A DNA stretch of 62,600 nucleotides, the filler included, from Collodictyon triciliatum (taxonomy: Eukaryota), in NCBI GenBank assembly GCA_043381765.1. It is 4 parts of 4 records of this genome, joined end to end, with 100 filler letters (N's around TTAATTAATTAA, not from the genome) between each part and the next. Parts side by side here need not be neighbours in the genome. Positions count along the whole stretch, not along the records: positions 13,173 to 37,161 come from JBHJMP010000158.1; 3 more parts are not named here. One strand, 5' to 3'. Below the pieces are notes generated by a model. It was not told the origin of the DNA. It made no database searches and was given only the letters and a program-made list of their open reading frames with translations. The position numbers and the translations under genes are program-made. This document shows positions 3,050 to 50,800 of this stretch, piece after piece (position 1 is the stretch's first letter; the number at the start of each line of letters is the position of its first letter).

Positions 3050-6000
3050 ATGATGCCAACTTCGAACCATGCTGAAAAAAGAGTCAGAACAGAAATGTCT
3101 CGCCGCAGAGAAGACGCAACAACCTTGCGACTTAGTTCGGCCCAGGTGTCTTATTTGTATTCTGCTTTTCTTTTCCTTTTCTTTTTCTTTTTCATTTTCT
3201 TTTTCTTTTTCTTATTTTTTCTTTTTCTTTTTCTTTTTCTTTTTCTTTTTCTTTTTCTTTTTCTTTTTCTTTTTCTTTTTCTTTTTCTTATTTGTATTCT
3301 GCGTTTTCTTTTTTCTTTTTTCTTTTCTTTTTCTTTTTCTTTTTCTTTTTCTTTTTCTTTTTCTTTTTCTTTTTCTTTTTTTCTTTTNNNNNNNNNNNNN
3401 NNNNNNNNNNNNNNNNNNNNNNNNNNNNNNNNNNNNNNNNNNNNNNNNNNNNNNNNNNNNNNNNNNNNNNNNNNNNNNNNNNNNNNNCTTTTCTTTTCTT
3501 TTCTTTTCTTTTCTTTTCTTTTCTTTTCTTTTCTTTTCTTTTCTTTTCTTTTCTTTTCTTTTCTTTTCTTTTCTTTTCTTTTTCCGTTTCTTCATCTTTT
3601 TTGAAGTGTTTGTTTTACTTGAAATGCTAATTTGAGTTCACGTAATAAAAGGCCGATGTCCACCCAAAAACACCACCACGCTCCGCCAGAGCAAACGGGC
3701 AGGATGGTAGCACGTCGAACAGAAAGTCAGATTACAGCCCTGTGGCCAAAAGCAGGCAACATATTAATGAAGAAGCCATGCCCAAGACAAAATATCAGTT
3801 TCGAGAACGAGCAGCGAATGTCAAGGTCAACCGCGAGTTTTCTCTTTGAACCCTCCGTGTGTGTGTGTCTATACATTTTGACCCCTCTTTTATTTATTTT
3901 TTATTGAGTGATTAAATTCCAGTATGACTACGAATCGAACTCCTCGTCAGAAAAACAACACACCGTCGAAAAAGCACCAGGTTTTACCTCTCTACTGTGT
4001 ATTCAATCAACGGAATATTTTTTTGACAGCTAATAAGATTGAATTTCCGCTTTTCTATAAACTCTGTGTAATTGATTGCAATTCGTTTACTAATTATCTA
4101 TCAGGCAAGGATAAATCATCAGCTAAAAGGAATCAAAGTGAACGAGATGCTGGCTTGAATATCAATCGAGAGTCCTCTCCCAAGAAAAGCAAAAATCATG
4201 TCCATGCAGAATTACTAGAGAAGAAATCGTATAACCAGGAGGTTCTCCCCACAAGACAAAGCAGCCGGATTCTTGCCTCCACCTCACGAAATCAAAAAAT
4301 GCAGAAAAGATATCAATTGGATAGCGAGAATGAAGATGCAGCGGAGCATTTAGATTCCAGGGAAGATGACGGGGCATATGACGAGAGTGACAGAGATGAC
4401 CCTGATAACCGCAGTGATAATGATTCAGTAGACTCGCATGACTCTGGGGATAATTCAGACGACTCTGGGAACATCCAGGTGCGCGGATTGCGCCGCCAGC
4501 ATACAGGGATACACTATTACAACCATCACAACCACCACGTTCACCAAAGGAGAGCACAAAAACACCTATCCAAGGCAGATACCACATGGCCAAATCACGC
4601 AGCAGAAAAATACATGAATAGGGGAGTTGAGAGCAACGCGCATGCCGCTGGAGACGAATCACAGCACAGTCGACGTCGCATGGTTGAGTATCGTCACATT
4701 CAAAGTCCAGTATTTCATTCGTACAGAACAGGTGATCCAAGAGGAATACATAGAATGAAGGAACCCTTTTCTGCGCTTGGTAAGGAAGGCCAAAAAAGTG
4801 GGAAGGGATACGAAGGCAAGGATGATGGTTTTAATAGACGAGTTATCTGCTCAGAGGATGAATCGAGTGGTGATGCATTTCAATGCCTTATTGAAGAAAG
4901 TGAACGTCAACTAACAGAGGCCCTAAAAATGAAGGAAGAGTTGCCCATGAACCACGAAAGCACAACTAAGAGACGAGCCGAGGAACCTACTTTGGTCGAC
5001 CAACCTGTTGCAAAAACTGAGAGATCAAAACAAAGTCAAAACAATTATAATATCTTATAACCTTTTTTTTTCTTTCATATTTGATTAAAATTCATCCTGT
5101 GCTATGCTGCACTTTTCTAAATGAATATTTCTTTAGAACCTGGAACAAACATTATCGGGACATCTACGCGCTCATCAGCTCGACTACAGCAAATAGCAGC
5201 ACGAACGTCTGATTCAAATGTGGGAGAAGCAGCGCAACAAGACCCTCCAATTCGTGAAGCACAAGCACATAAGCAAAACATATCCGCTGACTCACAATTC
5301 AGCCCAGACAAGAGCGGACACTACACTCTTCGTCCTAGAAAAACTGTAAACTATTCTATGGAAACACCACGTGGGAAAAAAACAAAAGGTTCTTCCGGTA
5401 AATACAAGCATTCAAACAAGTACCTGGGAGGAAGGAGGAAGGATGAAAAAGAGCTGATTCGGTATGTTCTCATGGCAATCATATAATGTCAATTTGATAA
5501 TTCACCCAGGCATCCCACATACAACCTATCACTACAACCTGTAAAATACATGCAAGCACCACTTCATACGTTTTCCTTCTCTTTTGCTTTTTTTTTTGGT
5601 TTTTTTTCTTTTGTATTTTGCTTTTGTATTTTGCTTTTGTTTTTGTTTTTGTTTTTGTTTTTGTTTTTGTTTTTGTTTTTATTTTTCAGCAAAAAGCACT
5701 TATTTATGAGATGCTACAGGCATGTCTCTGGAATGAATGAAAAGGCACACCGTCGTTTCTCTGCAGGCTATGGTTTGATGCCCACTGAGTCAGAAAACTC
5801 CAATGATTCAAGTTCATCGTCTTCGGTACTAGTATATGGCTTATAAAACCCTGATATTTTCTTTATTTGTTTGGAAAAATAAGTCACCTTCTATTACACT
5901 ATTTACATCGAAGAATTTCTGCTATACTAACTAACTTGCTATTTGAATTTTAGTCAACGCCTCATCACAGAAGCCGGCCATCAAAGTCCCGATTCATCGT

Positions 6001-9000
6001 TCGACCCATCAACGATTTAAGCAGAGACAGCGTTGGCGGTAACTCGAAATTCACATATTAAAATGCTAACTATGAGGATTGGTGCTTTGATTTTGATGTA
6101 TTTTGTAACATCAACATATGGTTCGCTCTCTTTTTTTTCTCTTTTTTTTCTTTTTCTCTTTTTCTCTTTTTCTCTTTTTCTCTTTTTCTCTTTTTCTCTT
6201 TTTCTCTTTTTCTCTTTTTCTCTTTTTCTCTTTTTCTCTTTTTCTCTTTTTCTCTTTTTNNNNNNNNNNNNNNNNNNNNNNNNNNNNNNNNNNNNNNNNN
6301 NNNNNNNNNNNNNNNNNNNNNNNNNNNNNNNNNNNNNNNNNNNNNNNNNNNNNNNNNNNTTCTGTTTCTGTTTCTGTTTCTGTTTCTGTTTCTGTTTCTG
6401 TTTCTGTTTCTGTTTCTGTTTCTGTTTCTGTTTCTGTTTCTGTTTCTGTTTCTGTTTCTTTATGTTTTAATTTCGTGTCGTGCCATTAAGCAATCCGAAT
6501 ACTATGTCACCAATTTCCCTAGAAAGTGTCGAAATCGATTGCTCCATCAACTTCGAATCGATTGGTGGTCTAGAAGACCGTAATATCCAATACACTTTGC
6601 ATCACCACATTCTTAACTACTACATACATAATAGAAGAGAAAAAAACAGTTACTGTCCAGTGGCTTTATATTTTTAATTACACTTCTGCCGGCTTTTTAC
6701 CAGATATCAACTCACTCAAGGAAATCATCTTGATGCCATTGATTTACCCGGAGCTCTTCCAAGAGCTTGGATTGACACCGCCTCGAGGAATTCTTTTCGT
6801 AGGGCCGCCTGGCACAGGGAAAACCCTGATGGCTCGCGCTCTTGCTAACGCCTGTAGTTTTGTACGTTTCACAACATAAATGAATGTATTTGCACACCAA
6901 ACTATTGTTATTCTCATATGAGTCAAAGTAAGGATATGCAGTTTAAACGGTTGCCCGCAATTCAAATATTTACAGGGCACCCAAAAAGTGGCCTTTTTTA
7001 TGAGAAAAGGTGCGGATGTTCTCAGCAAATGGCTAGGTGAAACCGAAAAGCATCTTCGGTTACTTTTTGAGGAGGCGAAGAAGAGACAACCCTCCATAAT
7101 ATTCTTTGATGAAATCGATGGCATGTTTTCTTTGTTTACGAATACTAAGATATGATGTTGCAAGCATTCGGTGATACCGTTTGTATCCTATACTTTGGTC
7201 TCTGAGGGTTTGTATCGTGAACGTTGCTAGGATTGGCACCGATTCGGTCGAGCAAGCAGGACCAGATTCACAGCTCGGTTGTTTCTACACTCCTTGCATT
7301 GATGGATGGGCTAGATTCGAGAGGTAACACGCAGATAGACAGGGGACAAAAACTGTTGAGACGAATACTTGAATGAAATATCAACTACCATTGGTTCTCT
7401 GTGTGTGTCCATATGTAATCTGATGTAGATATTGTTCAATTAATATGAAACAGTCTATTTCTGGACATCTGAACACAATCACAAAATTACGAGAGATTCG
7501 AGATAATTCGTGCATTCAAGGGATAAGTGAATATACAATAGAACTATTGCTTACATCTCTCGATTAGGGAGTGTTGTTCTGATTGGAGCGACCAACCGAG
7601 TAGACGCTATAGACCCTGCTCTTCGTCGGCCCGGACGATTTGATAGAGAGTTTCACTTCCCATGTCCTTCTTCAGACGCTCGAAGGTGTTTATTCATTTA
7701 TGTCTTGTATTTTTTTTAAAAAGAAAAAAAAGAGGAATTCAATGCTTTATCATGCTTCTATTCGCTTATGTGTATTTGTTGAGCTTAAAAATATATTCAT
7801 TCTCAATACGCATGCACTTGGTCTCATAATTGGGTATACGAATTTTTCTTTAGGAATATTCTGAAAATTCACTCGAGAAGATGGAACCCACCTCTTTCAG
7901 AGTCGATGTTGGACAACATTATAAAAAAGACAAATGGTTTCAGCGGTGCTGATTTACAGGTTCATATTCCTACTATCGCTCATTTGCTTCTTTTTTTTTT
8001 CTCATTTGAAGCCTTGACAGCGGTATGGATGATGCAATAAAGCCATCCTACATTCCATCAAGTCATAATTGACCTTCGATGTGTTTTGGATATGTATTTA
8101 GGCTTTGTGCACTGAGGCTGCTATGGTATCCATTCGAAAGTGTTTCCCACAGATATATAAATCTACCGATAAGGTTGTGTTGAACCACAGCCACGTACGA
8201 GTAACAGAGACTGAGTTTGATTTTGCCTTGCAAGGTACCTAATCTGGCAATAAATAGAATGACAAGAAAAAGGATGAGCATTATGAGCATTCCATATATC
8301 TTATTATGTCTTCCTGATATGATTTTAATAGAAGTAATTAATTATTCGCAACCATCGCACATGCAACAAAGCATTAAAATGGTACATATCTAGTTATAAA
8401 GTCGACGTCATCTAGAACGTCAGAAACGTCATCTTATCCACTCCCTTCTTACCTTGAACCTTTGCTTGGAAGCTCAGTCAGATCGACTGTCAATCAAATC
8501 AAAAAAATATTTCCTTTTGTCACCCAGCACTCAAAAACTGCGACACAATTGCAGATGCAAACAGCATCTATGCGTAGCTTTTAATTTATCTCGCTGATTG
8601 TTTTGCTTTGCTTTACTTTTTGTTCTGTTTTGTTTTGTTTTTGTTTTGTTTTTTTTGTTTTGTTTTTTTGTTTTGTTTTTTTGTTTTGTTTTTTTGTTTT
8701 GTTTTTTTGTTTTGTTTTTTTGTTTTGTTTTTTTGTTTTGTTTTTTTGNNNNNNNNNNNNNNNNNNNNNNNNNNNNNNNNNNNNNNNNNNNNNNNNNNNN
8801 NNNNNNNNNNNNNNNNNNNNNNNNNNNNNNNNNNNNNNNNNNNNNNNNTTTTTTTTTTTTGTTTTGTTTTTTGTTTTGTTTTCTGTTTTGTTTTCTGTTT
8901 TGTTTTCTGTTTTGTTTTCTGTTTTGTTTTCTGTTTTGTTTTCTGTTTTGTTTTTATTTTTATTATTTATTTTGTATTATGTTTTGCTTTTTGCTTTTTG

Positions 9001-14414: not shown

Positions 14415-15515
14415 GTACTAAGTCGCCTTCAGCGCAGATCCTTTAGAACGGATAAGCAATCAAAAGCTTTAGGAAGGCAAGTAGCGCGCAGTTACCTGAT
14501 ATATCTGAATACCCCACAACGTCGATGATGACAGACCTGCTTACTTTTCTTTAGTATTGAAAACAAGGCCTTGAAAATATCATGATCTACATTCTTTGGT
14601 TCGCTTCGATTTTCCTCCTTCTGTCTCTTTTCTTCACTTTTGGAGGCACAGCGATTTCATCCAACTCAGCATTCAATTTGAAGAGTCTCAAAAGACCCAC
14701 TTAGTCTATCTTTGTTTCTGAGACGATTTCTGCTTCGGATATGACGAAGCTTTTGCCTTCGCCATTCAAAAAAAAAAAAAAACTCAAATATTCGTCTTCA
14801 TGTTTGACTTTGCTTGTGAAAGCCAAAAACCACGATTCTAAGACCGCAGAAAGTCGATCCCATGGAAGGAAGATATGAAAGACAAGACTACAGCCACTTT
14901 TCAAGGGCCTCAATGCGCAAGGGCTATTAAGAAAACACCAAAGCAAGTAAAGGGGAAGAGTACAAAAGATATTTATATATATATAAATAAATAAATAAAA
15001 ATAGCAGCAGCCATGTCTAAGCATTGCCATAAACCCAAGACAAGAGTTCTGCTGCAGGTTTACAAGTGCGGATGAGCCTTCGATTCATAACCAAGCTTCG
15101 GCATTCGCCCCGCGCTTGTTGTCGGCTCACAGGTTTATGCGCTCATTGCGATGCTGCTTTTCAAAGACTTTGAGCCATCTTTTTCTTTTTCTTCATTTCC
15201 TTTATTTTCTTTCTTTTTCTTCCAAATATCTTTTTCAACTATTCGGCCAAAGGATACTTGTTTTCTCGTCATTTCCTGCCTGGTCGCACACGAACTTACG
15301 GATGGGATTCTGTGAAATATTCTAAATTTGGCTTCCACATGTGTCGATGGCCGTTACGGCTGTTCGTTGACCTTCTTGCTGGGTTTACATACAAGGTATC
15401 AGTCACCAAACTGGAGTTTGACAGCTTTTTTTATCACACAGACCGCAAGGTGCACACGAATCAGATCGGCTTGGCTGGTACTTACGACGAATCACCCAAC
15501 CGGGTGTATTAGCAT

Positions 15516-16221
15516 ATGAACTGTGTAGAGGAGCTGAACCCTGTCTACTGGCCATCTGGGCCGATCGCAAATTGCTCGCGACTTGACATCGGCTATAAGA
15601 CCCTGGCCTCAATCCCACCGCCCGCATTCCGCCTAACCCGCCTGGTTCGTTTTTGGGTGAACAACAATTGTTTGACTCGAATACCAGCAGAGGTATCGAG
15701 GCTAAGCAATTTGATAGAACTAGATGTATCTAGCAACTTCTTAACGTGTCTGCCTGTCGAGATATCTTCCTTGAAAAAACTCCAACATCTAGCTTTGTTT
15801 GATAATCAGCTGTCGTGTGTGCCACGTGTAGTATCGACCCTGACTAACCTTCGTTTTCTGGACATATCAATGAATCACATAACCTACATACATGATGAAC
15901 TATCTACGCTCTCTTCCCTCACAAGTTTGGGTCTACACGAGAATCCGGTGTGTCTTGATTTTTCCTCATTCTTGTTACTTTTTTGATATATTCAAGATCT
16001 TGTGTTTTGCCCCCAATTATAACAAACTTCATACCTATAAGATCGAGCAGCTCCCTTTGTCAATCACCGCTCTCGGATGCCTAAATGACTTGGGTATCGC
16101 CAGCATGACCGGTGGAGTAAATATTACTCGCGCCTATCGTGGGATAAGTCAACTTCCATGCTGGAACAATACAAGTCACACTGACTTCTCCTTCATCCGC
16201 GCGCTGAAACTGTATGAATAG
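15516..16221 (+). CDS. Small leucine-rich-repeat protein of about 200 aa, 2 exons
   Basis: Repeated LxxLxLxxNxLxxLP units (LSNLIELDVSSNFLTCLP, LKKLQHLALFDNQLSCVP, LTNLRFLDISMNHITYI). Intron at about 15948-16041. Confidence 0.85.
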
Positions 16222-16566
16222 TAAATTGCCTGCCCAGCTGATGCAAGTTGAGCACTTCCGAGGACCATTTATCTTTCAACGCACTCGCAAATACAGTTTA
16301 CATAAACAGTTCTGGGTAGTTCAAGGAATTAATTGCGTGTTGTAAAAAGTATTCTTCCCTCCTCGGGCACCCTGCACTATCTTTTCACCTGACAAACAAG
16401 GCCTGGCTCAAGACGAAGCTAAGACATTTCCCAAACATAAATATTGGAATAAAAATTTTACAAGATTTGTTTGTTTGCGGGTTTGTTAATTCGTTTGTGT
16501 GAAAAAAATTTTACGATTACTCTATTATATATCCCCAACGTGATTAAATGTAGTTACCACACTGTG

Positions 16567-16896
16567 ACAAAGACAGAGTTGAGAGGAACAGTAAAAAAAA
16601 ATCACAAAATACTCTTGCGCGAGAAAGAAAAGATACAAGGATTTTGGGATATGCATGGCAACAGGTTTACAAAGTGATATTTCTTTTGTTCCCAGGACTT
16701 CTGAAGAGAATCAGCGGCTTGAGACATCAAGAGTATCTTTAATCGATTTAGAGACAGAACTGAGAAAACAAAATTCATGCACGGTCGATTATGAACAATT
16801 TCGAGAATATGAATATGAAATCAAGGTATGAGATAGAATTTTCCAGATTTCATGAACACGTAACTTTTCGAAAGATGAGATGGAGACTGTATGTTA

Positions 16897-16943
<47 letters not shown>

Positions 16944-17316
16944 AAAAAGAAGTGAACAGTTGTTTATGGACCGAATCGAAAAGACATTTGGCAAGGATGT
17001 TGCACTGACATATGGAGACTGGAACAGAAAATGTCTGATGAAGCATTTTATGGCAACAATCGGAAGAGGATTACGAAAAATACTACCCGAACACTTTGAA
17101 ACGGTTAGTGTAGATGAATTTAGAACCTCCAAGGTGCGTTTTAACTGCGAAAAGGAACTGAATATATGAAACCGAAAGGAAAAACAAAAAAGCGTATATA
17201 GATGTCTCATATGTAAAGAATGCAATCGCTCAGAAAGCAAACAAAGTGTATTCTCGACAAGGGACTTTAACAGCGCTAATGATATACTCGACATAGTTAT
17301 TTTTAATCCTTCATAA
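16567..17316 (+). pseudogene. Decayed Fanzor (Fanzor1-type, TnpB-derived RuvC nuclease), C-terminal half
   Basis: Joined frames read KKNHKILLREKEK / LIDLETELRKQNSCTVDYEQFREY / FRKMRWRLYVNK / RSEQLFMDRIEKTFGKDVALTYGDWNR..MKHFMATIGRGLRKIL..FETVSVDEFRTSKVRFNC..*..YRCLICKEC..VFSTRDFNSANDIL. This gives GDW, VDEFRTS, a Zn ribbon and an RDxNSA RuvC-III motif in the expected order. Frameshifts and a TGA at 17167 are present. Confidence 0.85.
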
Positions 17317-17329
17317 TATGCACACACCG

Positions 17330-17490
17330 TCCTCTAAAAAAAAATAGGCTGTCGGGTCTTTCCTGACAGCCTCCACCACTACACAATCTTTGTGAAAAAA
17401 GTTGGCGAGACCTTGGATACCAGCACACCAGGTTTACCAACCTTTCGATTGGTATGCTCCTTCTAATTCTGGAATAAAATACGGCCGATG
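17330..17490 (+). ncRNA. Putative Fanzor omegaRNA (fRNA) scaffold
   Basis: Lies directly 3' of the Fanzor remnant. Contains an 11-bp stem (17346-17372), a 5-bp stem (17382-17394), a long stem-loop (17401-17441) and a possible pseudoknot (17417-17423 with 17449-17455). Confidence 0.55.
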
Positions 17491-17836
17491 TAATGCGGAA
17501 TCGAAGAAAATAAGGTTGGGTCTTGACAAGTGCTGTGCAGGAGCGTAGCTTCATTCAAATTGCCAATCGACATATGCGGCACACTCAATTCCAATGGGTG
17601 ATCCAGAATGACAGGTGTAGGGTGCGTTGTCACAATATGATGGTGTAAATTCCACAAAAGATTAAGCTCATTGCTGATTTGTAATGGAAGACACGAATCG
17701 AAAATTGTGTTGGAACCGTTCCAATCAACTCTGGGATCATAGAGATATCACCGTCGACCGGCTGCATATTGCTCGAGCGGAGCTGGACTGCGTTCAAGAG
17801 GAGGCGTGAGACAGAAGACAAAGCCAAGAGGAAGCC

Positions 17837-17868
<32 letters not shown>

Positions 17869-17924
17869 AAATGGAAATAAAGGAGGAGGAGCCTACTACC
17901 TTCGTTCTAACTGCAATCTCTTAG

Positions 17925-20567
17925 ATGGCTGTCCATGTGGAAATCTCTGAAGAAACGATCGACAAGTGTATGTACGTCGCATTTGGACTGATCATTTTCT
18001 CTGCGGTGTTTGAGCGTACGCTGCACTCCATGGAGCAGGTAGGCGCATTGTTAAGTTACCGCATATATAAGGAAAGAAACAAATAAAAGAAAAAAAAAAA
18101 AGAAAAGAGCACGCTGGGTCACCCAGATAATATTGTGATCGATTTCGTACCTCAGATTCTTAGGATTCATATTTTTTTTCTTTCCTGTTTCTGGTGATGT
18201 TCGATCGGAAAAATACGCATCTTTGTACCAACCCTAACTTCATATCTTCCTCTATTTTCTTCTTTGAAAAGTGGATCAGTATTTACGCTCGGTATTACGT
18301 GGAAACAGTGAACGTGATATACAAGGGTAAGTCACTTATATGTGATTGAAGACCATCAACCCTTCGCCCCGGTCTTGTGTATTTCTTGTCCTAGCGTGGT
18401 GTTTGGGTTGATTATCGAGCTTGAAGGAATATTTATTCGGTTTACATATGCATATTCATTCACATTCACATTCAATATATACTGAATTCTAATAAAAAAA
18501 ACCAAGTTTGCATAGTATTTCTTTGTCTTGGAAATTTTAATTAGGGTATTCTATCATTTTTCAATCAGAGCTCATGATGTTGGGAATCTTATCCCTCTTC
18601 CTGACCTTCCTTACCGCGCTTGTGTCGGATGAAAATTGGAGCTACTCATTTGAGTTTGTGCACTTGGCTCTTTTTATCTCCAGCAGTAAGTCACACAACT
18701 ACGCATGATAATATTTTAGGAGAACTACATTGAATATATAAACTACTTCCAAACAACAAAAAAAACAATCACTTGAGAATAATTCAGTTTGTATTATTAT
18801 CATTATAATGATCATTATGATCATACCCGTCACACTCATTAGTGGTTCATATTATTCTCGCCGTATTGATGGTTATCTTCGGAGTGAAATGGTGTCGATT
18901 CTGGAAAGAGGGCGAGAAGATGGGACTAAGTAAGTTTAAAAATTTAGCTTGATATTATCCAACACCCCCACTCTGACAAACCTGTCATATTAAAACGGTT
19001 TCTTACAAAGATTAAATTACCTTTGGCCCAGTAGATATATCTTTGATTCCATCTCTTTCAATTAATTGAATTCACTCTTTCATGTTCTGTTTGATATCTC
19101 TAGAGGCTGTCGAGTCGAAGCTAGAAGGCTTGCAATACGAAGCTGGATGGAAATTTGTCTTCAGCAATCTGAATATATTCATTCAAAAGAATCTCTTGGA
19201 GTGGAGAATGAATTTTCTTATTGTACGTGAAGTTTTCATTTGGCAGGTGAGATCATTATCTTATTTTTTGCCACATATATGAACAATTCTCTAACTCGAA
19301 AGTGCTTTGAGCATATCCATCGACACATAATTGAACCAAAAGAAACACTGATTAGTCAATCCAGATACTTTCGTTCAAATACATTCTAATTGAGGAGATA
19401 CATATCTAGAACGACCTCGAAGACTGGTTTGACTTTACTATGTACATTCGGAAAAGAGTTCGTGCGGCAGTTCGGCACCTGGTCGTCATTCACTACTCAG
19501 TTTGGGTCATTCTGTTGTGCATCTTGATGGTTGGGCTATTGGCTTACAAGGCCGAATTTCGTTCAGGGGAGGTATGATGCTTGTTATCATGGGGATTAAT
19601 ATGATATTACTACTCGAATAAGTCTGGTTTCATAAGCTGAAGTGACTAATAAAATGTTTTTTTTTTATATATAATCGCGGTTAAGTTGAAGAGGGTATAA
19701 TTAGCTTTTGAACATGTACTTATCAAGCTGTCAACAATTATGTCTCAGGAATCGTTCATCATCACTGCCTGGGTCAATTATTTACTTACTATAATCCTCT
19801 ACCTAAAAAGTCGCCAAATGATGAAGGAATTTATCCGCGACCACAAAACGATGCACCGACGACAAAAGAGCGAAGGTCCAAAAAGGAGAAACTCTACGAC
19901 CTCGTTCTACTCTGCTCTAGAGGAAAAATCCAAGTTTGTATCATTCTTACACACCCCTTCTCGCCAGTGAACATTTTGCCTCGTCTCTTCCCAACTTCCG
20001 ATATCTCTAAAGTAAAATGGGCATTCATTTCTCTCAATCGCATATGCTTCGACACACAGGCGTGCAAATCGCATTATACAAATGGAGGGAGAAGTTCAAC
20101 GCCAAATCTTTTGGTTGGGTTCACCTTCCACTTTTCGAAACAGTCTTCAGTTCGTACTGTTGTTCCATTCTCTTTGGCTTGCTGTATATGTGCTTTACTG
20201 GGCGTCTCGTTTCAGCTCTGCTGCCGGGCACATCAGCGCCTTCGTTCCTGTCGTTTTCATCGCATTTATGGTGACCCGCATCCTGCCCATATTCTCTCTG
20301 ATGTCCAGTGTCGGTTGCCTTACGTGTCAACAAAGCCTGGCGGAGTCCATCGCCAAACAGCGTCTCCTGCGAGAGGAAGGATCAAAAGGCTTGCAGGTCT
20401 CCATGGAAGCCGGAATGGCTTATGTCAACCCAGTTATACTTACCCCGGACAGGGAGGTCAAGATGGGCACGTCTGTCGACCGCCAGAAAGACTTTTCATC
20501 CTTCCTAGACGAGGAACAAGTCGATGCTGACCTACTGGATCTTCCAATCAGCCATGATTCCGATTAG
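17925..20567 (+). CDS. MLO: MLO-family multi-pass membrane protein, multi-exon
   Basis: MLO signatures YKELMMLGILSLFL, VHLALF, WFDFTMYIRK and QIFWLGSP, with hydrophobic helices in MLO order. GT-AG introns are phase-consistent. Confidence 0.78.
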
Positions 20568-32500: not shown

Positions 32501-35500
32501 TGCTTTTTCAATCTCTGTTTTTGAGTTCTTTCAATCCAAAGCCGAAGACATCTGCGTAGCATCGATTGCTCGGAGAATGATCGGCATATCATATGTAAAG
32601 GCGCTGACCAATACTCGGAAGGGCTAACTCTGATACTTCTTTTCTTCAATGGTAGTGGTTGGACAGTCTCATCACTCCCATGAACTCGTACACTCACATG
32701 TCCTTCTTTAGCAAAAAATGGTGTTTTGTTTTGTTGTTTTAAAAAATTACACATCAAAAGATAACCAGAAAATACTATATCAATCTCCATATGAACTACA
32801 ATCAATTTCACTTCATTTCAATCCAATAAAAGGAAGATATTTACTTCTATCTTGATTTTCTATTATTGATGGATGTTCATTGAAGCTGTCATTGCTGTTG
32901 ATTTCGTTAAGCAAGAATCTTGCTCGGTTGATCAAATAAAAAATTCTGTGGGATGGTATAGATATTGAACGTGCAGCTATCCTCTTCAGTTGAACAGATA
33001 CATCAATTAACTCTTTCATGTCCTTGTCATTCAAGAGTGATACTAATGTAGCCAACTGTGTATCTCTAGCCGAAATTTCATTACTAGATCATTCTAGGTT
33101 AATACAAATGCAATACGCTCGAAAAATGACAAATTGAAGAGAAAAAAAAAAAGGAAAAAAGGAAAAAAAAAANNNNNNNNNNNNNNNNNNNNNNNNNNNN
33201 NNNNNNNNNNNNNNNNNNNNNNNNNNNNNNNNNNNNNNNNNNNNNNNNNNNNNNNNNNNNNNNNNNNNNNNNAAAGAAAAAAAAAAAAAGGAAAAAGGAA
33301 GAAAAAGGAAGAAAAAGGAAGAAAAAGGAAGAAAAAAGGAAGAAAAAAGGAAGAAAAAAGGAAGAAAAAAGGAAGAAAAAAGGAAGAAAAAAGGAAGAAA
33401 AAAGGAAGAAAAAAGAAGAAAAAAGAAGAAAAAAGAAGAAAAAAGAAGAAAAAGGAAGAAAAAGGAAGAAAAAGGAAGGAAAAGGAAGGAAAAGGAAGGA
33501 AAAGGAAGGAAAAGGAAGGAAAAGGAAGGAAAAGGAAGAAAAAGGAAGAAAAAGGAAAAATCGAAAGATCTTTTCCTTGCCAATACCGTATGGATAGAAT
33601 AATTAAAGTATTAAGTACAGTAAGAATAAATATAAAAATGATAGCAGACCTCGGGATAGGGAACCTACTGTAATCTCCAGATTGCAAACGTCCTATAACT
33701 TTGGCCTAAATTCATTTTTTATTTTATTGTTACATTTAGATTTAAGAGCCAAGCTCAAATCACTTTTCTTAAAAAAGAAAAAGAAAAAGAGGAAACGATT
33801 TTTGATGATATCTTAACACCTATTATCATAAATGAATAAGATATTATTACTTTTTTCCTTTATTCGATTCAAAGAAGATATTATTATAATAATATCAAGC
33901 TTCAAGTATGCATCACATAAATAAATAAATAAAAAAAGAACAAATCAAATTTAGTAAATTAAAATCACGAGATATGATGAAACCTTCATTTCCTTCCTAT
34001 AGTTATGCTGGTCTACCCAAGTGCCATAAAAGCACTTCCATGTCGATAATTTTTTGAATCTTTCAGCAACGCTATTGGCCACTCTATGATTCCATTTGAG
34101 ACAAGTATGATGTAAGAGTACAGAGAAATACTTTTGTAGAACTCGGGCCTCTTGAATTTTTGTCACATAGCTACAAACCCTTCTAGTTTCTCTTTTAGTC
34201 TCGGAATACACTTGCCAGCGAACAAAACTTTTTTTTAGCAATTGCAGTCCTGAGAAATTTCCTGCTAGAAGAAATCTTCTCCTTCTCTCCTTCTTCAATT
34301 GTTTATAACTGTACCAATCATCAAAATAGTTTCGTTTGATTCTTCCTAATACAGCCGTTTGAAACTCTAATATTCTTTTCCGTTGACCTATCTTTGCAAC
34401 GACAAAGTTGTACCAAATCTGTAAGATCTTCTCCATTAAGCGGACATTGTAAAAAAAATGCGCATTTTGCTCTCTTTGCCTTGTATTGACTTCGGAATGA
34501 ACTCTATCCCTCCATAAAATAAAATACATTTCATAACATTTTCTAGTTTGTTTCCTTTCATATAGGCAATAAATATCCCTGAGGAGCATTGCCTTTTTTG
34601 TATAAAATAACCACTTTCTCAACACTAGTGTTCCTAATTTTGATAAATGAATAGATTTCAACCGAAGGTACCTCGTTTTCTTGTTGTGTCGATTAACTGC
34701 GTGCACCTTTAAACGAGCAAATGACTGTCTTGACAGGATTTTAGTTCTCCACTCGACTGCTTTCTGTTCTATCGCCTTTTCGAGAACAAGGTGTTTGTGT
34801 TTTTTGTTCCACGTTGAAAATACGAGACTAAGGATTCTCCATCTATGCAGTATATCTGCATGTTTGATCAAATTCGTTTTTTCTCTCCTTTTGATCAAAT
34901 ATGATAGCCAGTTTTGGAAAGACAATGACACAATCCGTAGATTTTTGTTTCCCAAATATCTGTCTGCATTCAACATCATCTCACGTTTCCACAGAACGAA
35001 TGACATCCATCTGGAAAAGTAGCGATGGAAAAGTTTGGAACGGCGGTACTCTGCTGCTCGAATTTGATAGGACATGTACACTGCCAAAGCCTTGGTCTTT
35101 GAGAGCCATTCGTTAAATGCATGTTTTTTGATTTTATTCGACCGATATTCATGAATTATGTTTGCTTGATGTCTTAAATTACTATTTTTGATCCAGTAGC
35201 TCTTCCATATGCCGTAAAACTGTTTCAGAGTCGTATACCTGTAGAGTCTTATCGATAGAGCTATATTCCTCCATAGCTGAAAGATGTATTTACTTTTCTT
35301 TTGTGCAAGAAACATCAAAATAGATTGATCGCGTTGTTTCTGGGTTCTTCTTTGAATGACATATTGAATCCAGCAATCAATTGTTTTTCTCAGCAGCAAC
35401 ATCTTATAAAAACTGACACTCAAAATGTGATTCGCTCTTACTTTTTTACGATATATCATATTGGTTTTAAGGGCTTTGAACCCACGAGAAAGAAGCTCAC

Positions 35501-47871: not shown

Positions 47872-50800
47872 ATGTCTGTGCAAGGACTCGGCCGATCGAT
47901 GAAGAGGATGAGCATCTTCCAAATGCCCGAAGGCACCCATGATGCTCAGGAACTTGGGCGCTGTATGTTATGTTACTCGATGGCTCTCGAATGAACATAA
48001 TAAATACAATAACAATACTTTCATAGCAACGAAGCAAAAGCTGAATGAATTACGTTCAACTTTGCCTTTTCTTTTCTTTTCTTTTTAATTTCCTCTTCAT
48101 TTTAATTCCTCTCTGTATGTCTTGTACTGCTGTTAATTATTGTTATTCATAATCATTTATATGGTAAAAGTCCATCAACAGTTTCAAATAAGCCCAGTTT
48201 ACTTTACCTGCTTTTGCTTAAAAAAACCATCTCACTCAACTGACAGTTATTACACGAGAAGAGCAGGTTCTCTACTCGAGAGGAATCATTTTCTTATTTT
48301 TATACTTTAATAACTCGCAGCTCAACTCAAGCTTCAAGAGCTGAAAAAGAATATCTCTGTGGAAAGTCGCAAGAATTATGCACTCGAGCGACAGATTCGG
48401 ATTCTGGACCAAAAGATTGCGCTCTTGGTGAAGAACCGGATTTCCCTTGAAGAAGCTGAGGCAGCTGCAACTGAGTTGGCTGGACCTACCGGCGAAGTTG
48501 CCCGCCTGAGCTCAGATCGACAGAAATCTGTAAGCATCAGATTGAATAGTGAAAACAATCATTCGAAGAAAAACCATCTTGCGACTGAACAACAACAATA
48601 TTAGTAAAATAATAATGATAATAATAAATAATAATACATAATAATAATAATACATAATAATAATACATAATAATAATAATACATAATAATAATAATACAT
48701 AATAATAATAATACATAATAATAATAATACATAATAATAATAATACATAATANNNNNNNNNNNNNNNNNNNNNNNNNNNNNNNNNNNNNNNNNNNNNNNN
48801 NNNNNNNNNNNNNNNNNNNNNNNNNNNNNNNNNNNNNNNNNNNNNNNNNNNNCATAATAATACATAATAATACATAATAATACATAATAATACATAATAA
48901 TACATAATAATACATAATAATACATAATAATACATAATAATACATAATAATTATAACAGTAATCACAATACGCTCATTAGTTATATGGCTCCCTTTATGT
49001 TGTGTTTTGCTCCTAATATTGCTCAGAAATCACATGAATAACACAATGACTATTTCTTCTGTATAGCACTATGAGAGTCTCTTCTTCCTACTTCAAAATG
49101 AGCCGCAATACATGGCGGGTCTCACCTCTTTCATCAAGACAAACGAGATTGACTCAATCCTTCAGATTGTGATGTTCACGTTGTATGGAAATCAGTACGA
49201 TGCCAGAGAAGAGCATTTGCTTCTGCAGATGTTCCAGGTTTTTGCCTTCTCGTTTAATTCTCCCTTCAAGATTTTATTCAATCAAAAGTGTCAAAGTTAT
49301 TCGAAAAAAAAGTAGTTCATTATGCTGAATGCATAGAGAGTACTTCGCACTGAGGTTGACAATGCCACAAGTATGGGATCTCTGCTTCGTGCGAATACTG
49401 CAATTACAAGAATGATGACAACTTACACTCGGTCAGAATCATAGATTTTCATATCTTCTATCTAGACATTAGAAAATTATCGTTAACTTACTCAAGCAAG
49501 GGGTTATCATTTCTATTTTACACACTATCTAGCAGCACTAATGATGTAAACCTACTACTTATTTTATTTAGCCGTGGGCCAGGACAATCCTATTTAAAGT
49601 CCACTATCTCTGGAATCCTCAACTGGCTGATAAAGTCTGATATCAACCTTGAAATTAATCCGATGAAGGTAAAGTCTTTGTTCATTTGCAAAACATCCAT
49701 TTAATCAATTATTCTCTTGAATAGATAATTACTCTGAAAATAGCACACAATCACTGCATATTAAAGTAGACGTGGGAATACTCATACATTCACCACAATA
49801 CCAAGGTTTACGAAGCTATGATTAACGACGAGGAAGCACAGACGGGACAACCATCAAGCCTGCCTCGCAATGTAACCGCCGAGGTTGCAGCAGAAAATGC
49901 CAAGGTCAAGAGCATTATCGAATCACGTAAGCAACTAACTTGTCGAAGTGTCATATATATTGACAATACAAGAGATAAGTCAATTCACTTTTTTTAAATT
50001 TCATACGAACTCCCCATTTCAAAAAGGATATTACTGCATAGGATCTCAATTACAAATACTAATCCAAATAATAGCGTTCTAAAGTTATGTTTTTTCATTT
50101 AATAAAATTCGGTTCATTTTAATATGAATAAAATTTATATCCTTTATATCTAGGCGCACCAGTTCTTCAGGAAACCGCTGAGAAATTTTTAGAGGTCATT
50201 CTGAAATCACTTCCCGAAGTCCCGTATGGAATTCGATACATTTGCAAGCAAATCTACATATTGACAAAGGTACCTCTTTTGATCTGATGACTACTCGGTA
50301 TATATTTTTATGTCGTAGCGCTATGCAATCTTAAAAAATCGTAAAGGAGCCTCCGTACGGTTATGATTTTATCAAAAATTGCATTAACTTCACGAATATA
50401 TATTCTAGACAAAGTTTCCTCAAGCAACCCGCCAGGAGCTGACCTCGCTGGCTGGTGGATTCCTTTTGCTTCGTTTTATCAACCCTGCCATTGTGACCCC
50501 GCAAGCGTACATGCTTGTAGATGCAAAGCCAGGAACAAATGCCAGAAAGAATCTGACATACGTACGAAATACACCCTGATGGGCATGATATTTCCATGAT
50601 TAGTTTGTCTTTTTTCTTTTCTTACGTGATTGATGGATTTTCACTTTCATGATACATTTTACTAAAACTTCAGCTCGCTAAAATGTTGCAAAACCTGTCG
50701 AACGGAGCAAACTTCGGAGAGAAGGAATCTTACAGTAATTTCACATTCAACGATATAGTCCAGTCGATTAATGCGCACTGTGCAATACGCAACAATACAA

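What the first reader, a model, noticed from the sequence alone, without database searches (positions are those of the whole stretch)
16567..17316. Hidden Fanzor (eukaryotic RNA-guided TnpB-like nuclease) relic between the LRR and MLO genes
Seen: an intronless, fragmented + strand coding remnant. The ORF track shows only a poly-K 92-aa piece of it. Joining frames gives ETEL..NSCTVDYEQF, FRKMRW, YGDW, MKHFMATIGRGLR, VDEFRTSK, a half-mutated Zn ribbon (RFNC...CKEC) and TRDFNSA, with the Asp codon at 17263-17265. Known: this motif order, with the catalytic Glu in the DE-x-x-TS position and a C-terminal RD-x-N-x-A, characterises Fanzor1-type RuvC domains in eukaryotes and giant viruses. Inference: the N-terminal half, including the RuvC-I Asp, is missing, so this copy is inactive. 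It implies that a Fanzor family, possibly undescribed and possibly with intact copies, has been mobile in this genome.
Basis: partly seen in the sequence, partly recalled or inferred. Interest (0 to 1): 0.88.

Follow-up and report, generated by a model that had tools for sequence, protein, structure and literature searches.

The report
Broken Fanzor1 nuclease gene remnant
This is the decayed tail end of a Fanzor1 gene, a transposon-borne RNA-guided DNA cutter of eukaryotes and giant viruses, lying dead between two ordinary host genes; it is a real but ordinary relic of a known kind.

Summary
Window 16567-17316 (+) holds the C-terminal ~30% of a Fanzor1 gene, read in four collinear pieces over three frames. 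It has a 2-nt deletion near 16811, an A48 tract at 16893-16940, an in-frame TGA at 17167-17169 and one lost zinc-ribbon cysteine. A 97-member family HMM ranks these four pieces first among 3340 six-frame pieces of the window (E 5.8e-25, 3e-8, 5.7e-4, 0.11). The only solved structure matched is Parasitella parasitica Fanzor1 (E 7.1e-5). The relic keeps the counterparts of SpuFz1 E541 and D606. Nothing matches the N-terminal ~400 residues, including the RuvC-I Asp, so it is inactive.

The nearest intact relatives are about 50% identical. They sit in 3.3-kb Tc1/mariner-type elements (DDE_3 transposase plus Fanzor1, ~30-nt inverted ends, TA on both sides) on giant-virus-like metagenome contigs. 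Runs of two coded organisms hold many 90-99% alike contigs over 16544-17413. A second frameshifted copy is on record (P0157). So the relic belongs to a multi-copy family. Whether intact copies exist could not be tested, because no genome is held.

Verdict: a new member of a known kind, of modest interest.

The parts
16567..16641 (+). 5'-most recognisable piece of the relic (frame 1, ..VKKNHKILLREKEK..), just downstream of where the RuvC-I motif would be. Weak homology may reach back to about 16516.
   Evidence: Subfamily HMM positions 398-416, E 1.7, not significant alone; 16 of 3000 shuffles reach its score. tblastn with L008 Fanzor residues 376-414 matches 16516-16629 at 37.5% as part of a linked set. 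An identical contig of run X4 ends at 16555.
16700..16810 (+). Frame-2 piece (..LIDLETELRKQNSCTVDYEQFREY), HMM positions 413-442.
   Evidence: E 5.7e-4 and 3.3e-3; 1 of 3000 shuffles.
16809..16892 (+). Frame-0 piece (..EFSRFHEHVTFRKMRWRLYVN), HMM positions 440-476. The frame change at about 16811 is a 2-nt shortfall relative to other copies.
   Evidence: E 0.11 and 0.016; 0 of 3000 shuffles. Loose-end letters of other copies in X1, X3 and X4 read through in one frame and are 2 nt longer here (table 7).
16893..16940 (+). A48 homopolymer inside the coding remnant. It stands where relatives have only a short Lys-rich stretch (..VYtkKSE..), so it is an expansion or insertion, and it shifts the frame.
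   Evidence: Sequence; alignment to the subfamily HMM; listed as a repeat.
16942..17166 (+). Best-kept piece: GKRSEQLFMDRIEKTFG..YGDW..MKHFMATIGRGLRKIL..VDEFRTSKVRFNCEKELNI. It includes the Glu at 17116-17118 (counterpart of SpuFz1 E541), TS at 17125-17130, and the first zinc-ribbon pair with Arg (17137-17139) in place of the first Cys.
   Evidence: HMM E 5.8e-25 and 1.5e-28; PDB hit PpFz1 E 7.1e-5; alignment to SpuFz1; relatives and P0157 have C-x-x-C here.
17167..17169 (+). In-frame TGA stop between the two halves of the zinc ribbon.
   Evidence: P0157 and the metagenome relatives have sense codons here. Some contigs lack one letter at 17192/17193 (table 4), which fits a short local double frameshift in the window's copy (inference).
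17170..17316 (+). Second zinc-ribbon half (C 17203, C 17212, C 17221), the RuvC-III motif TRDFNSA with Asp at 17263-17265 (counterpart of SpuFz1 D606), and the stop at 17314-17316. Compared with relatives, about 30 C-terminal residues (..RPxAFxR..) are missing or diverged.
   Evidence: HMM E 3e-8 and 1e-14; hhalign; alignment to SpuFz1.
17317..17440 (+). Non-coding 3' tail that is still part of the repeated family. It contains an 11-bp hairpin at 17346-17372. It is the candidate place for the guide (omega) RNA scaffold and the element's right end. This role is inferred, not shown.
   Evidence: Contig cover of X1 and X3 continues to 17413-17500. A diverged X4 copy matches to 17440 and then runs on unlike. 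Fold of 17290-17450: -36 kcal/mol, z -2.82, 1 of 200 shuffles as good.
15513..16221 (+). Upstream neighbour: last two exons of a leucine-rich-repeat gene (exons to 15947 and 16042-16221, intron 15948-16041). It is a host gene, not part of the relic.
   Evidence: Pfam LRR_8 E 5.6e-16; GT..AG joint skipping 94 nt in one X3 contig (table 5).
17925..18038 (+). The identity is only weakly supported here.
   Evidence: Pfam Mlo PF03094 E 0.023, below cut-off, for the piece at 18541-18705; none for the other pieces.

Best explanation
Window ~16567-17440 (+) is a dead, 5'-deleted copy of a Fanzor1-carrying mobile element. It sits in the 1.7-kb spacer between an LRR gene and an MLO-like gene of a microbial eukaryote.

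Intact Fanzor1 proteins are RNA-guided, RuvC-type DNA endonucleases. Their guide RNA comes from the 3' end of the element, and they ride in DNA transposons.

This copy keeps only the last ~190 codons. These cover the linker after RuvC-I, the rearranged RuvC-II region with its alternative Glu, the zinc ribbon and the RuvC-III Asp, plus ~124 nt of 3' tail. The first ~400 codons are gone, including the guide-RNA and DNA recognition lobe and the RuvC-I Asp.

What remains is broken by at least two frameshifts, a 48-nt A-tract, an in-frame stop and a Cys-to-Arg change in the zinc ribbon. It cannot make a nuclease.

It is one member of a repeated family in this lineage. The nearest intact relatives ride in Tc1/mariner-type transposons in giant-virus-like genomes, so the ancestral element was probably of that type. 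That last step is inferred.

Shown: the homology, the lesions, the absence of the N-terminal part, and the multi-copy signal.
Inferred: the element type, the mode of truncation, and any guide-RNA role of the tail.
For: Homology:
- Long relatives in the 5.8-billion-protein search score E 1.2e-28 and 5.6e-28 at 48-50% identity.
- hhalign gives probability 99.9, E 1.7e-32.
- The family HMM ranks the four collinear pieces first among 3340.
- The only PDB hit is Fanzor1. The relatives match three solved Fanzor1 proteins over their full length.

Catalytic residues: Glu at 17116-17118 and Asp at 17263-17265 align with SpuFz1 E541 and D606 (PMC10432273 passages).

Loss of the N-terminus: nothing in the window matches HMM positions 1-397 or residues 1-375 of relatives at a significant level.

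Lesions.

Family size: 5726 representatives at E<=1e-3 and 1118 at <=1e-30.

Multi-copy signal:
- 80 (X1) and 74 (X3) contigs at 90-99% likeness pile up on 16544-17413.
- Up to 14 contigs cover one site.
- Summed depth there is 17-267, against 0-6 on the LRR exons.
- P0157 is a second copy, frameshifted at a different place.

Relatives' context:
- DDE_3 transposase hits (tblastn with the L005 DDE_3 protein) in 43 of 82 loci; read directly in L005 and L008, the transposase lies upstream of Fanzor1 on the opposite strand.
- 28-38-nt inverted ends with TA on both sides in L005, and similar ends in L008 and L009.
- Neighbours include ribonucleotide reductase, Hsp70 and a capping enzyme-methyltransferase, on 173-254-kb contigs.
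Against: - No transposase, inverted ends or target-site duplication are recognisable around the window's copy, so the element type is borrowed from relatives that are only ~50% identical.
- The depth figures are sums over contigs and may mix organisms and RNA with DNA. They are not copy numbers.
- The 5' limit is uncertain (16516-16597).
- Pfam alone does not reach its cut-off (E 0.16).
- The A48 tract could partly be an assembly artefact, since reads were masked there.
Confidence: 0.9

Rival explanations
1. The relic is a leftover of an integrated giant-virus genome fragment (an endogenous viral element), not of a host-resident transposon.
For: The closest intact relatives (L005, L008) lie on 173-254-kb metagenome contigs. 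Their neighbours are typical of giant viruses: ribonucleotide reductase small chain, Hsp70, a capping enzyme with N7-methyltransferase, and an SNF2 helicase. A giant-virus MAG also holds a Fanzor fragment (L001). Bao and Jurka 2013 propose viruses as vectors of Fanzors (PMC3627910, passages).
Against: The flanks are host-type genes within 350 and 500 nt; a spliced intron was seen in the LRR gene. No other ORF tested in the window matched a viral family: 0 of 8 further pieces had any Pfam family at E<=0.01. Identity to the viral-context relatives is only ~50%, and the tree places the relic on a long branch beside them rather than inside them. Many 90-99% alike copies in related organisms fit a dispersed repeat better.
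Confidence: 0.07
2. The 5'-deleted copy is not wholly dead. Like the 'ghost' loci of Spizellomyces punctatus, it may still supply a guide (omega) RNA from its 3' end and tail (~17200-17440) to intact Fanzor1 proteins made elsewhere in the genome.
For: The 3' end of the ORF and ~124 nt of tail are retained and shared with other copies. The tail holds a stable 11-bp hairpin (z -2.82). Saito et al. 2023 report 134 ghost loci that lack the ORF yet yield working guide RNAs (PMC10432273, passages). Run X3 shows one spliced joint (side 23 nt, under the tool's 30-nt caution), which hints that it is RNA, and it covers 17327-17413.
Against: No conserved structure could be tested, because the sequences of the other copies were not available. 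Rfam finds nothing. RNA cover may come from other copies. No intact Fanzor1 of this family is known: the best long protein is 50% identical. The right end and guide junction are undefined.
Confidence: 0.1
3. It derives from a Fanzor2, an IS607-type TnpB or another TnpB-like gene rather than Fanzor1.
For: The shared C-terminal motif (TS, zinc ribbon, RD) is common to all TnpB and Fanzor proteins (PMC3627910). The weak Pfam hit is to the generic Cas12f1-like TNB domain.
Against: At E up to 10 the relic hits only PpFz1 in the PDB. The relatives' profile hits three Fanzor1 structures, and no TnpB, Fanzor2 or Cas12 chain at E up to 1. NCBIfam, which holds the prokaryotic TnpB models, gives 0 hits for 3 of 3 proteins.
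Confidence: 0.02

Closest known systems
Fanzor1 RNA-guided endonucleases (SpuFz1 of Spizellomyces punctatus, PpFz1 of Parasitella parasitica, GtFz1 of Guillardia theta)
   Same: Same C-terminal architecture and motif order: G-D-W, then [DN]-E-[FY]-x-T-S with the alternative RuvC-II Glu, then the zinc ribbon, then R-D-x-N. The similarity is significant: PpFz1 E 7.1e-5 for the relic, and SpuFz1 E 3.8e-49 for its relatives.
   Different: Only the last ~30% is present. The RuvC-I Asp and the whole recognition lobe are missing. The frame is broken, there is an internal stop, and one zinc ligand is lost. The relic and its nearest relatives are only distantly related to these solved proteins.
Tc1/mariner elements carrying Fanzor1 in giant viruses (e.g. 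PGv-1 of Phaeocystis globosa virus, Bao and Jurka 2013)
   Same: The nearest intact relatives (L005, L008, L009) have this build: a DDE_3 transposase and Fanzor1 between ~30-nt inverted ends. TA flanks both ends in L005, the only locus whose junctions were read.
   Different: In the window no transposase, inverted ends or TA duplication are detectable. Identity to these relatives is ~50%. Whether the metagenome elements are close kin of PGv-1 was not tested.
Partial Fz genes and 'ghost' loci of S. punctatus (Saito et al. 2023: 42 loci, 19 full-length; 134 ghost loci)
   Same: A multi-copy family with many incomplete copies. The 3' end of the element is retained.
   Different: The ghost loci are ~550-nt units with both inverted ends and no ORF. 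This copy keeps 750 nt of decayed ORF and has no recognisable ends.

Membership tests
Fanzor1 | Significant sequence similarity to established Fanzor1 proteins, better than to Fanzor2, TnpB or Cas12 | tested here: met
   Relic: the sole PDB hit is PpFz1, E 7.1e-5. Relatives' profile: SpuFz1 3.8e-49, PpFz1 1.2e-43, GtFz1 2.9e-35, and no other nuclease at E<=1.
Fanzor1 | RuvC-I Asp (SpuFz1 D383, family motif G-x-D-P-G) | tested here: not met
   No match to this part in the window. If the weak homology is extended, a Lys codon (16504-16506) stands at the aligned place (read from the sequence, not significant).
Fanzor1 | Alternative RuvC-II Glu in the [DN]-E-[FY]-x-T-S motif (SpuFz1 E541; the rearranged site of Jiang et al. 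2023) | tested here: met
   GAA at 17116-17118 inside VDEFRTS; aligned with E541 through; papers read in passages. That the Gly of YGDW stands at the canonical Glu position is recalled, not tested.
Fanzor1 | RuvC-III Asp in R-D (SpuFz1 D606) | tested here: met
   GAC at 17263-17265 in TRDFNSA.
Fanzor/TnpB | Full motif D-X(125,275)-[TS]-[TS]-X-X-[C4 zinc finger]-X(5,50)-RD (Bao and Jurka 2013) | tested here: not met
   TS and RD are present. The first D is absent. The first Cys of the finger is Arg (17137-17139), and a TGA splits the finger. The relic descends from a member but is not a working one.
Fanzor1 | Intact open reading frame of about 600 or more codons | tested here: not met
   Three frames, one internal stop, and ~190 of ~630 codons kept.
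Fanzor1 | Guide (omega) RNA encoded at the 3' end next to the element's right end | tested here: inconclusive
   A ~124-nt tail is shared with other copies and has an 11-bp hairpin. There is no Rfam match. No covariation test was possible.
Tc1/mariner-borne Fanzor1 element | DDE transposase, terminal inverted repeats, TA target duplication | tested here: not met
   In relatives: DDE_3 hits in 43 of 82 loci, inverted ends in L005, L008 and L009, and TA on both sides in L005. Absent around the window's copy.

The most novel reading that the evidence does not exclude
The host lineage, an unnamed microbial eukaryote (its words also turned up in small shares, not habitat evidence, in freshwater metagenome runs), may carry a still active, transcribed, multi-copy Fanzor1 family. 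That family would be at most ~50% identical to any long protein in a 5.8-billion-protein collection. The window's 5'-deleted copy may still act as a 'ghost'-like source of guide RNA from its retained 3' end and tail. Intact copies would be a new Fanzor1 lineage, related to giant-virus mariner-borne ones, living in a cellular genome.
Probability: 0.2. Interest if true: 0.45.

Novelty: new member of a known kind. Interest (0 to 1): 0.27.

Why it matters
The relic is a correct annotation of a stretch that ORF tracks miss. It shows that a Fanzor1 family, whose nearest kin ride in mariner-type transposons of giant viruses, has spread in this eukaryote's lineage. That adds one data point to virus-to-host traffic of RNA-guided nucleases. 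It also flags the genome as a place to look for intact Fanzor1 genes. The relic itself has no function that the evidence supports. Fanzor1, its partial copies and its giant-virus links are already well described.

Tried and rejected
1. Whole-genome search for intact copies: no genome is held for this window.
3. Pfam on the pieces: only sub-threshold hits, PF07282 at E 0.16 and an unrelated RYYR-CCHC at E 0.14. NCBIfam: 0 hits.
4. Rfam and tRNA scans of the whole window: nothing.
5. Inverted or direct repeats that could mark the element's ends within 14500-19500: only short, weak pairs of the kind expected by chance. These include 16574-16592 / 17715-17733 (19 nt, 84%).
6. The inverted end of the L005 element searched in the window with up to 3 mismatches: 0 matches.
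7. DDE_3 transposase of the relatives against the window: best E 0.76, so none.
8. Other copies inside the window: none, only microsatellite matches.
9. Viral-contig scan: 2 loci, both holding only a fragment matching residues 47-158 of the query, with no full gene.
10. Nucleotide similarity of the window's flanks to any of the 82 loci: coding region only.
11. Host taxon: a language-model atlas look-up of a 429-aa neighbour ORF gave no usable hit. The organisms of the runs are coded. I ran no further search on this.
12. Freshwater metagenome runs hold only small shares (0.05-0.15) of the stretch's words. That is not evidence of habitat.
13. The parts of 17501-17848 without contig cover are not evidence of anything.
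14. Reading the frame breaks as introns. A 31-nt GT..AG stretch (16665-16695) would join frame 1 to frame 2. It is a third of the length of the one confirmed intron (94 nt), and relatives need no intron there, so this was not adopted.
15. Literature on Fanzor pseudogenes: a search for 'Fanzor' with 'pseudogene' gave 3 papers, none on the subject (listing only).

Full report
**Observation**

The remnant runs through four collinear pieces:
- frame 1 at about 16567-16641
- frame 2 at 16700-16810
- frame 0 at 16809-16892
- frame 1 again at 16942-17313

An A48 tract (16893-16940) lies between the third and fourth pieces. An in-frame TGA at 17167-17169 lies inside the fourth. The Asp codon is at 17263-17265, as claimed. 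The Glu of VDEFRTS is at 17116-17118. In the first zinc-ribbon pair, relatives have Cys where the window has Arg (17137-17139).

**Is it more than chance?**

Pfam alone does not settle it: PF07282, the Cas12f1-like TNB domain, scores E 0.16, below its cut-off. Other tests are decisive.
- The 145-residue read-through (P0001, X at the stop) has a single hit among 177,635 distinct PDB sequences at E up to 10. That hit is Parasitella parasitica Fanzor1, E 7.1e-5.
- In the 5.8-billion-protein collection it finds three long proteins, with E 1.2e-28, 5.6e-28 and 7.5e-13 at 48%, 50% and 34% identity.
- The alignment of these three (A1) matches SpuFz1 over its whole length (E 3.8e-49), then PpFz1 (1.2e-43) and GtFz1 (2.9e-35). 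No TnpB, Fanzor2 or Cas12 chain appears at E up to 1.
- hhalign of A1 against the relic gives probability 99.9, E 1.7e-32.
- I built a profile from 97 of the 153 family proteins then in hand (those of 560-720 residues). I searched it against all 3340 six-frame pieces of the window. It ranks the four relic pieces first to fourth, in the right order along the profile: positions 413-439, 440-476, 460-544 and 553-591, with E 5.7e-4, 0.11, 5.8e-25 and 3e-8.
- A profile of the 11 closest relatives gives 3.3e-3, 1.6e-2, 1.5e-28 and 1e-14.
- Residue shuffles of the two weak pieces reach the real score in 1 of 3000 and 0 of 3000 trials.

**What is kept and what is lost**

Through the alignment, the relic's Glu (17116-17118) corresponds to SpuFz1 E541 and its Asp (17263-17265) to D606. 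Both are metal ligands of the SpuFz1 active site, together with D383 and N385 (Saito et al. 2023, PMC10432273, passages read). The Glu in this position is the 'alternative' RuvC-II glutamate of the rearranged Fanzor site (Jiang et al. 2023, PMC10530073, passages).

Nothing in the window, on either strand, matches profile positions 1-397 or residues 1-375 of relatives at a significant level. The recognition lobe and the RuvC-I Asp are therefore gone.

The 5' limit is uncertain:
- The piece VKKNHKILLREKEK (16576-16632) aligns to positions 398-416 with E 1.7 only. 16 of 3000 shuffles score as well.
- A linked tblastn segment reaches 16516.
- An identical contig of run X4 stops at 16555.

**Lesions**

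- Other copies, seen as loose-end letters in runs X1, X3 and X4 (table 7), read through the break near 16811 in one frame. They are 2 nt longer there, so the window's copy has a 2-nt deletion.
- The A48 tract stands where relatives have only a short Lys-rich stretch.
- At the TGA, the metagenome relatives and P0157 have sense codons.
- Some contigs lack one letter at 17192/17193 (table 4). This suggests a short double frameshift in the window's copy, which is an inference.

The Bao and Jurka motif D-X(125,275)-[TS][TS]-X-X-C4-X(5,50)-RD (PMC3627910, passages) is thus only partly present.

**Relatives and their context**

An exhaustive profile search found 5726 representative proteins at E<=1e-3 and 1118 at <=1e-30. 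The family is therefore very large. None of the best 150 is more than ~50% identical to the relic.

A metagenome scan returned 80 loci with mostly uninterrupted genes of about 600-650 codons; with the 2 viral-contig loci, 82 loci were held. The 13 closest are 46-52% identical to the relic's C-terminal 120 residues.

In a tree of 78 loci plus the relic (205 profile columns, FastTree LG+gamma; the 4 of 82 loci without a long matching ORF were left out), the relic sits on a long branch. It falls in a clade of 15 with support 0.968, and its nearest neighbour is L009 at distance 1.10. This tree holds only sequences chosen for likeness to the relic and has no named references.

Two of the closest loci lie on contigs of 254 and 173 kb. 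Their neighbours include ribonucleotide reductase small chain, Hsp70, a capping enzyme fused to an N7-methyltransferase, and an SNF2-type helicase. Together these look like giant-virus genomes.

In L005 and L008, directly upstream of the Fanzor gene and on the other strand, lies a DDE_3 (PF13358) transposase. tblastn with the L005 DDE_3 protein finds homologues in 43 of 82 loci, including 6 of the 13 closest, the others being too short to tell. In L005, L008 and L009 the pair is enclosed by inverted ends of 32, 33 and 38 nt (100%, 97% and 92% complementary). In L005 the 28-nt end is flanked by TA on both sides. This is the Tc1/mariner-with-Fanzor1 build described for giant viruses by Bao and Jurka.

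None of it is detectable in the window:
- no transposase (best E 0.76)
- no match to that inverted end
- no convincing repeats
- no second copy in the 62.6 kb

**A multi-copy family in the host lineage**

Public runs hold only small shares of the 2.6-kb stretch. I laid four of them.

The LRR exons are covered by single contigs at depth 0-6. By contrast, 16544-17413 is covered by many short contigs:
- 80 in X1, split 20/25/35 at >=99, 95-99 and 90-95% likeness
- 74 in X3, split 7/26/41
- up to 14 contigs over one site
- summed depth of 17-267

The tool warns that these sums are not copy numbers and may mix organisms. Even so, the number of distinct variants over one site shows a repeated family. 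One X3 contig skips 15948-16041 with GT..AG ends (side 23 nt), which hints that X3 is RNA. In that case copies of the family would be transcribed. This is not proven.

The cover continues ~100-125 nt past the stop. A diverged X4 copy matches to 17440 and then runs on unlike. That tail holds an 11-bp hairpin at 17346-17372. The fold of 17290-17450 has z -2.82, and 1 of 200 shuffles folds as well.

A search among proteins of similar length found P0157 (136 aa, NCBI, a 582-nt contig), which is 71% identical. It reads the window's out-of-frame +2 translation at 16943-17035 and the Fanzor frame at 17041-17280. It is therefore another copy, frameshifted at a different place. It keeps the C-x-x-C that the window lost.

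No long protein closer than 50% was found. This is weak evidence against annotated intact copies.

**Explanation**

The stretch is a 5'-deleted, decayed copy of a Fanzor1-bearing mobile element in the spacer between an LRR gene and an MLO-like gene. The LRR gene is confirmed (Pfam E 5.6e-16). The MLO-like gene is only weakly supported (PF03094, E 0.023).

The relic cannot encode a nuclease. The element type (Tc1/mariner) and an ultimate giant-virus link are inferred from relatives.

Rivals:
- A leftover of an integrated giant virus. This is unlikely given host genes within 350-500 nt and a dispersed family.
- A 'ghost'-like guide-RNA source. This is possible but untested.
- A non-Fanzor1 TnpB relative. 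The evidence excludes this.

**Comparison and novelty**

Fanzor1 has been described since 2013 and shown to be an RNA-guided endonuclease in 2023. S. punctatus alone has 42 loci with full or partial genes and 134 ORF-less ghost loci. A decayed partial copy is therefore a new member of a known kind.

The supplements that list catalogued Fanzors were closed, so I cannot say whether this host's family is already listed.

Noticed in passing
window 17685-17921 (+), mainly 17703-17830: A piece just upstream of the MLO-like start aligns weakly to the RuvC-I part of the subfamily profile, positions 368-422 (VGTVPI.. for vGaDPG.., TAFKRRRET for tAFqRRTEs). E is 0.67 among 3340 pieces, yet 0 of 3000 shuffles reach its score. 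Its second half is a (GAAA)n/(GA)n microsatellite. It has no contig cover from the repeated family. It could be chance, or an older second fragment.
   Followed up: partly
L005 6618-9929; L008 6627-9949; L009 6588-9912: Complete 3.3-kb Tc1/mariner-type elements on giant-virus-like metagenome contigs. Each holds a DDE_3 transposase (- strand) and a 634-aa Fanzor1 (+ strand) between 28-38-nt inverted ends. TA flanks both ends in L005, the only one whose junctions were read. The right end starts only ~15 nt after the Fanzor stop.
   Followed up: partly
L001 6001-6336 (116.7-kb giant-virus MAG) and L002: Only a fragment matching residues 47-158 of the Fanzor1 query, 55% identical, with no full ORF around it. 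This is apparently another Fanzor1 relic, inside a giant-virus genome.
   Followed up: partly
window 16665-16695: A 31-nt GT..AG stretch with a pyrimidine run. Removing it would join frame 1 to frame 2 of the relic exactly. It is much shorter than the one confirmed intron (94 nt), and the surrounding ~88 nt have no counterpart in relatives.
   Followed up: no
window 15948-16041: A 94-nt GT..AG intron of the LRR gene, seen spliced out in one contig of run X3. One X1 contig runs through it unspliced.
   Followed up: partly
window 17346-17372: A perfect 11-bp hairpin with a 5-nt loop, 30 nt after the relic's stop and just after an A9 run. It lies within the tail shared by other copies.
   Followed up: partly
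P0157 (136 aa, NCBI source, 582-nt contig): A called ORF on another degenerate copy of the same family. Its first 34 residues are the out-of-frame reading of the Fanzor DNA. The rest is in frame and 71% identical to the window's relic.
   Followed up: yes
window 3100-3600, 6100-6470, 8580-9000, 33100-33600, 48500-49000: Long microsatellite tracts, each interrupted by a run of N (assembly gaps). The window comes from a draft, repeat-rich eukaryotic assembly of ~36% G+C.
   Followed up: no
The other pieces give nothing, so the name is plausible but not confirmed here.
   Followed up: partly
P0002, P0003: The protein collection's precomputed Pfam column lists PF26935.1 for these Fanzor1 relatives. 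The Pfam copy searched here did not report that family, so its meaning is unknown to me.
   Followed up: no
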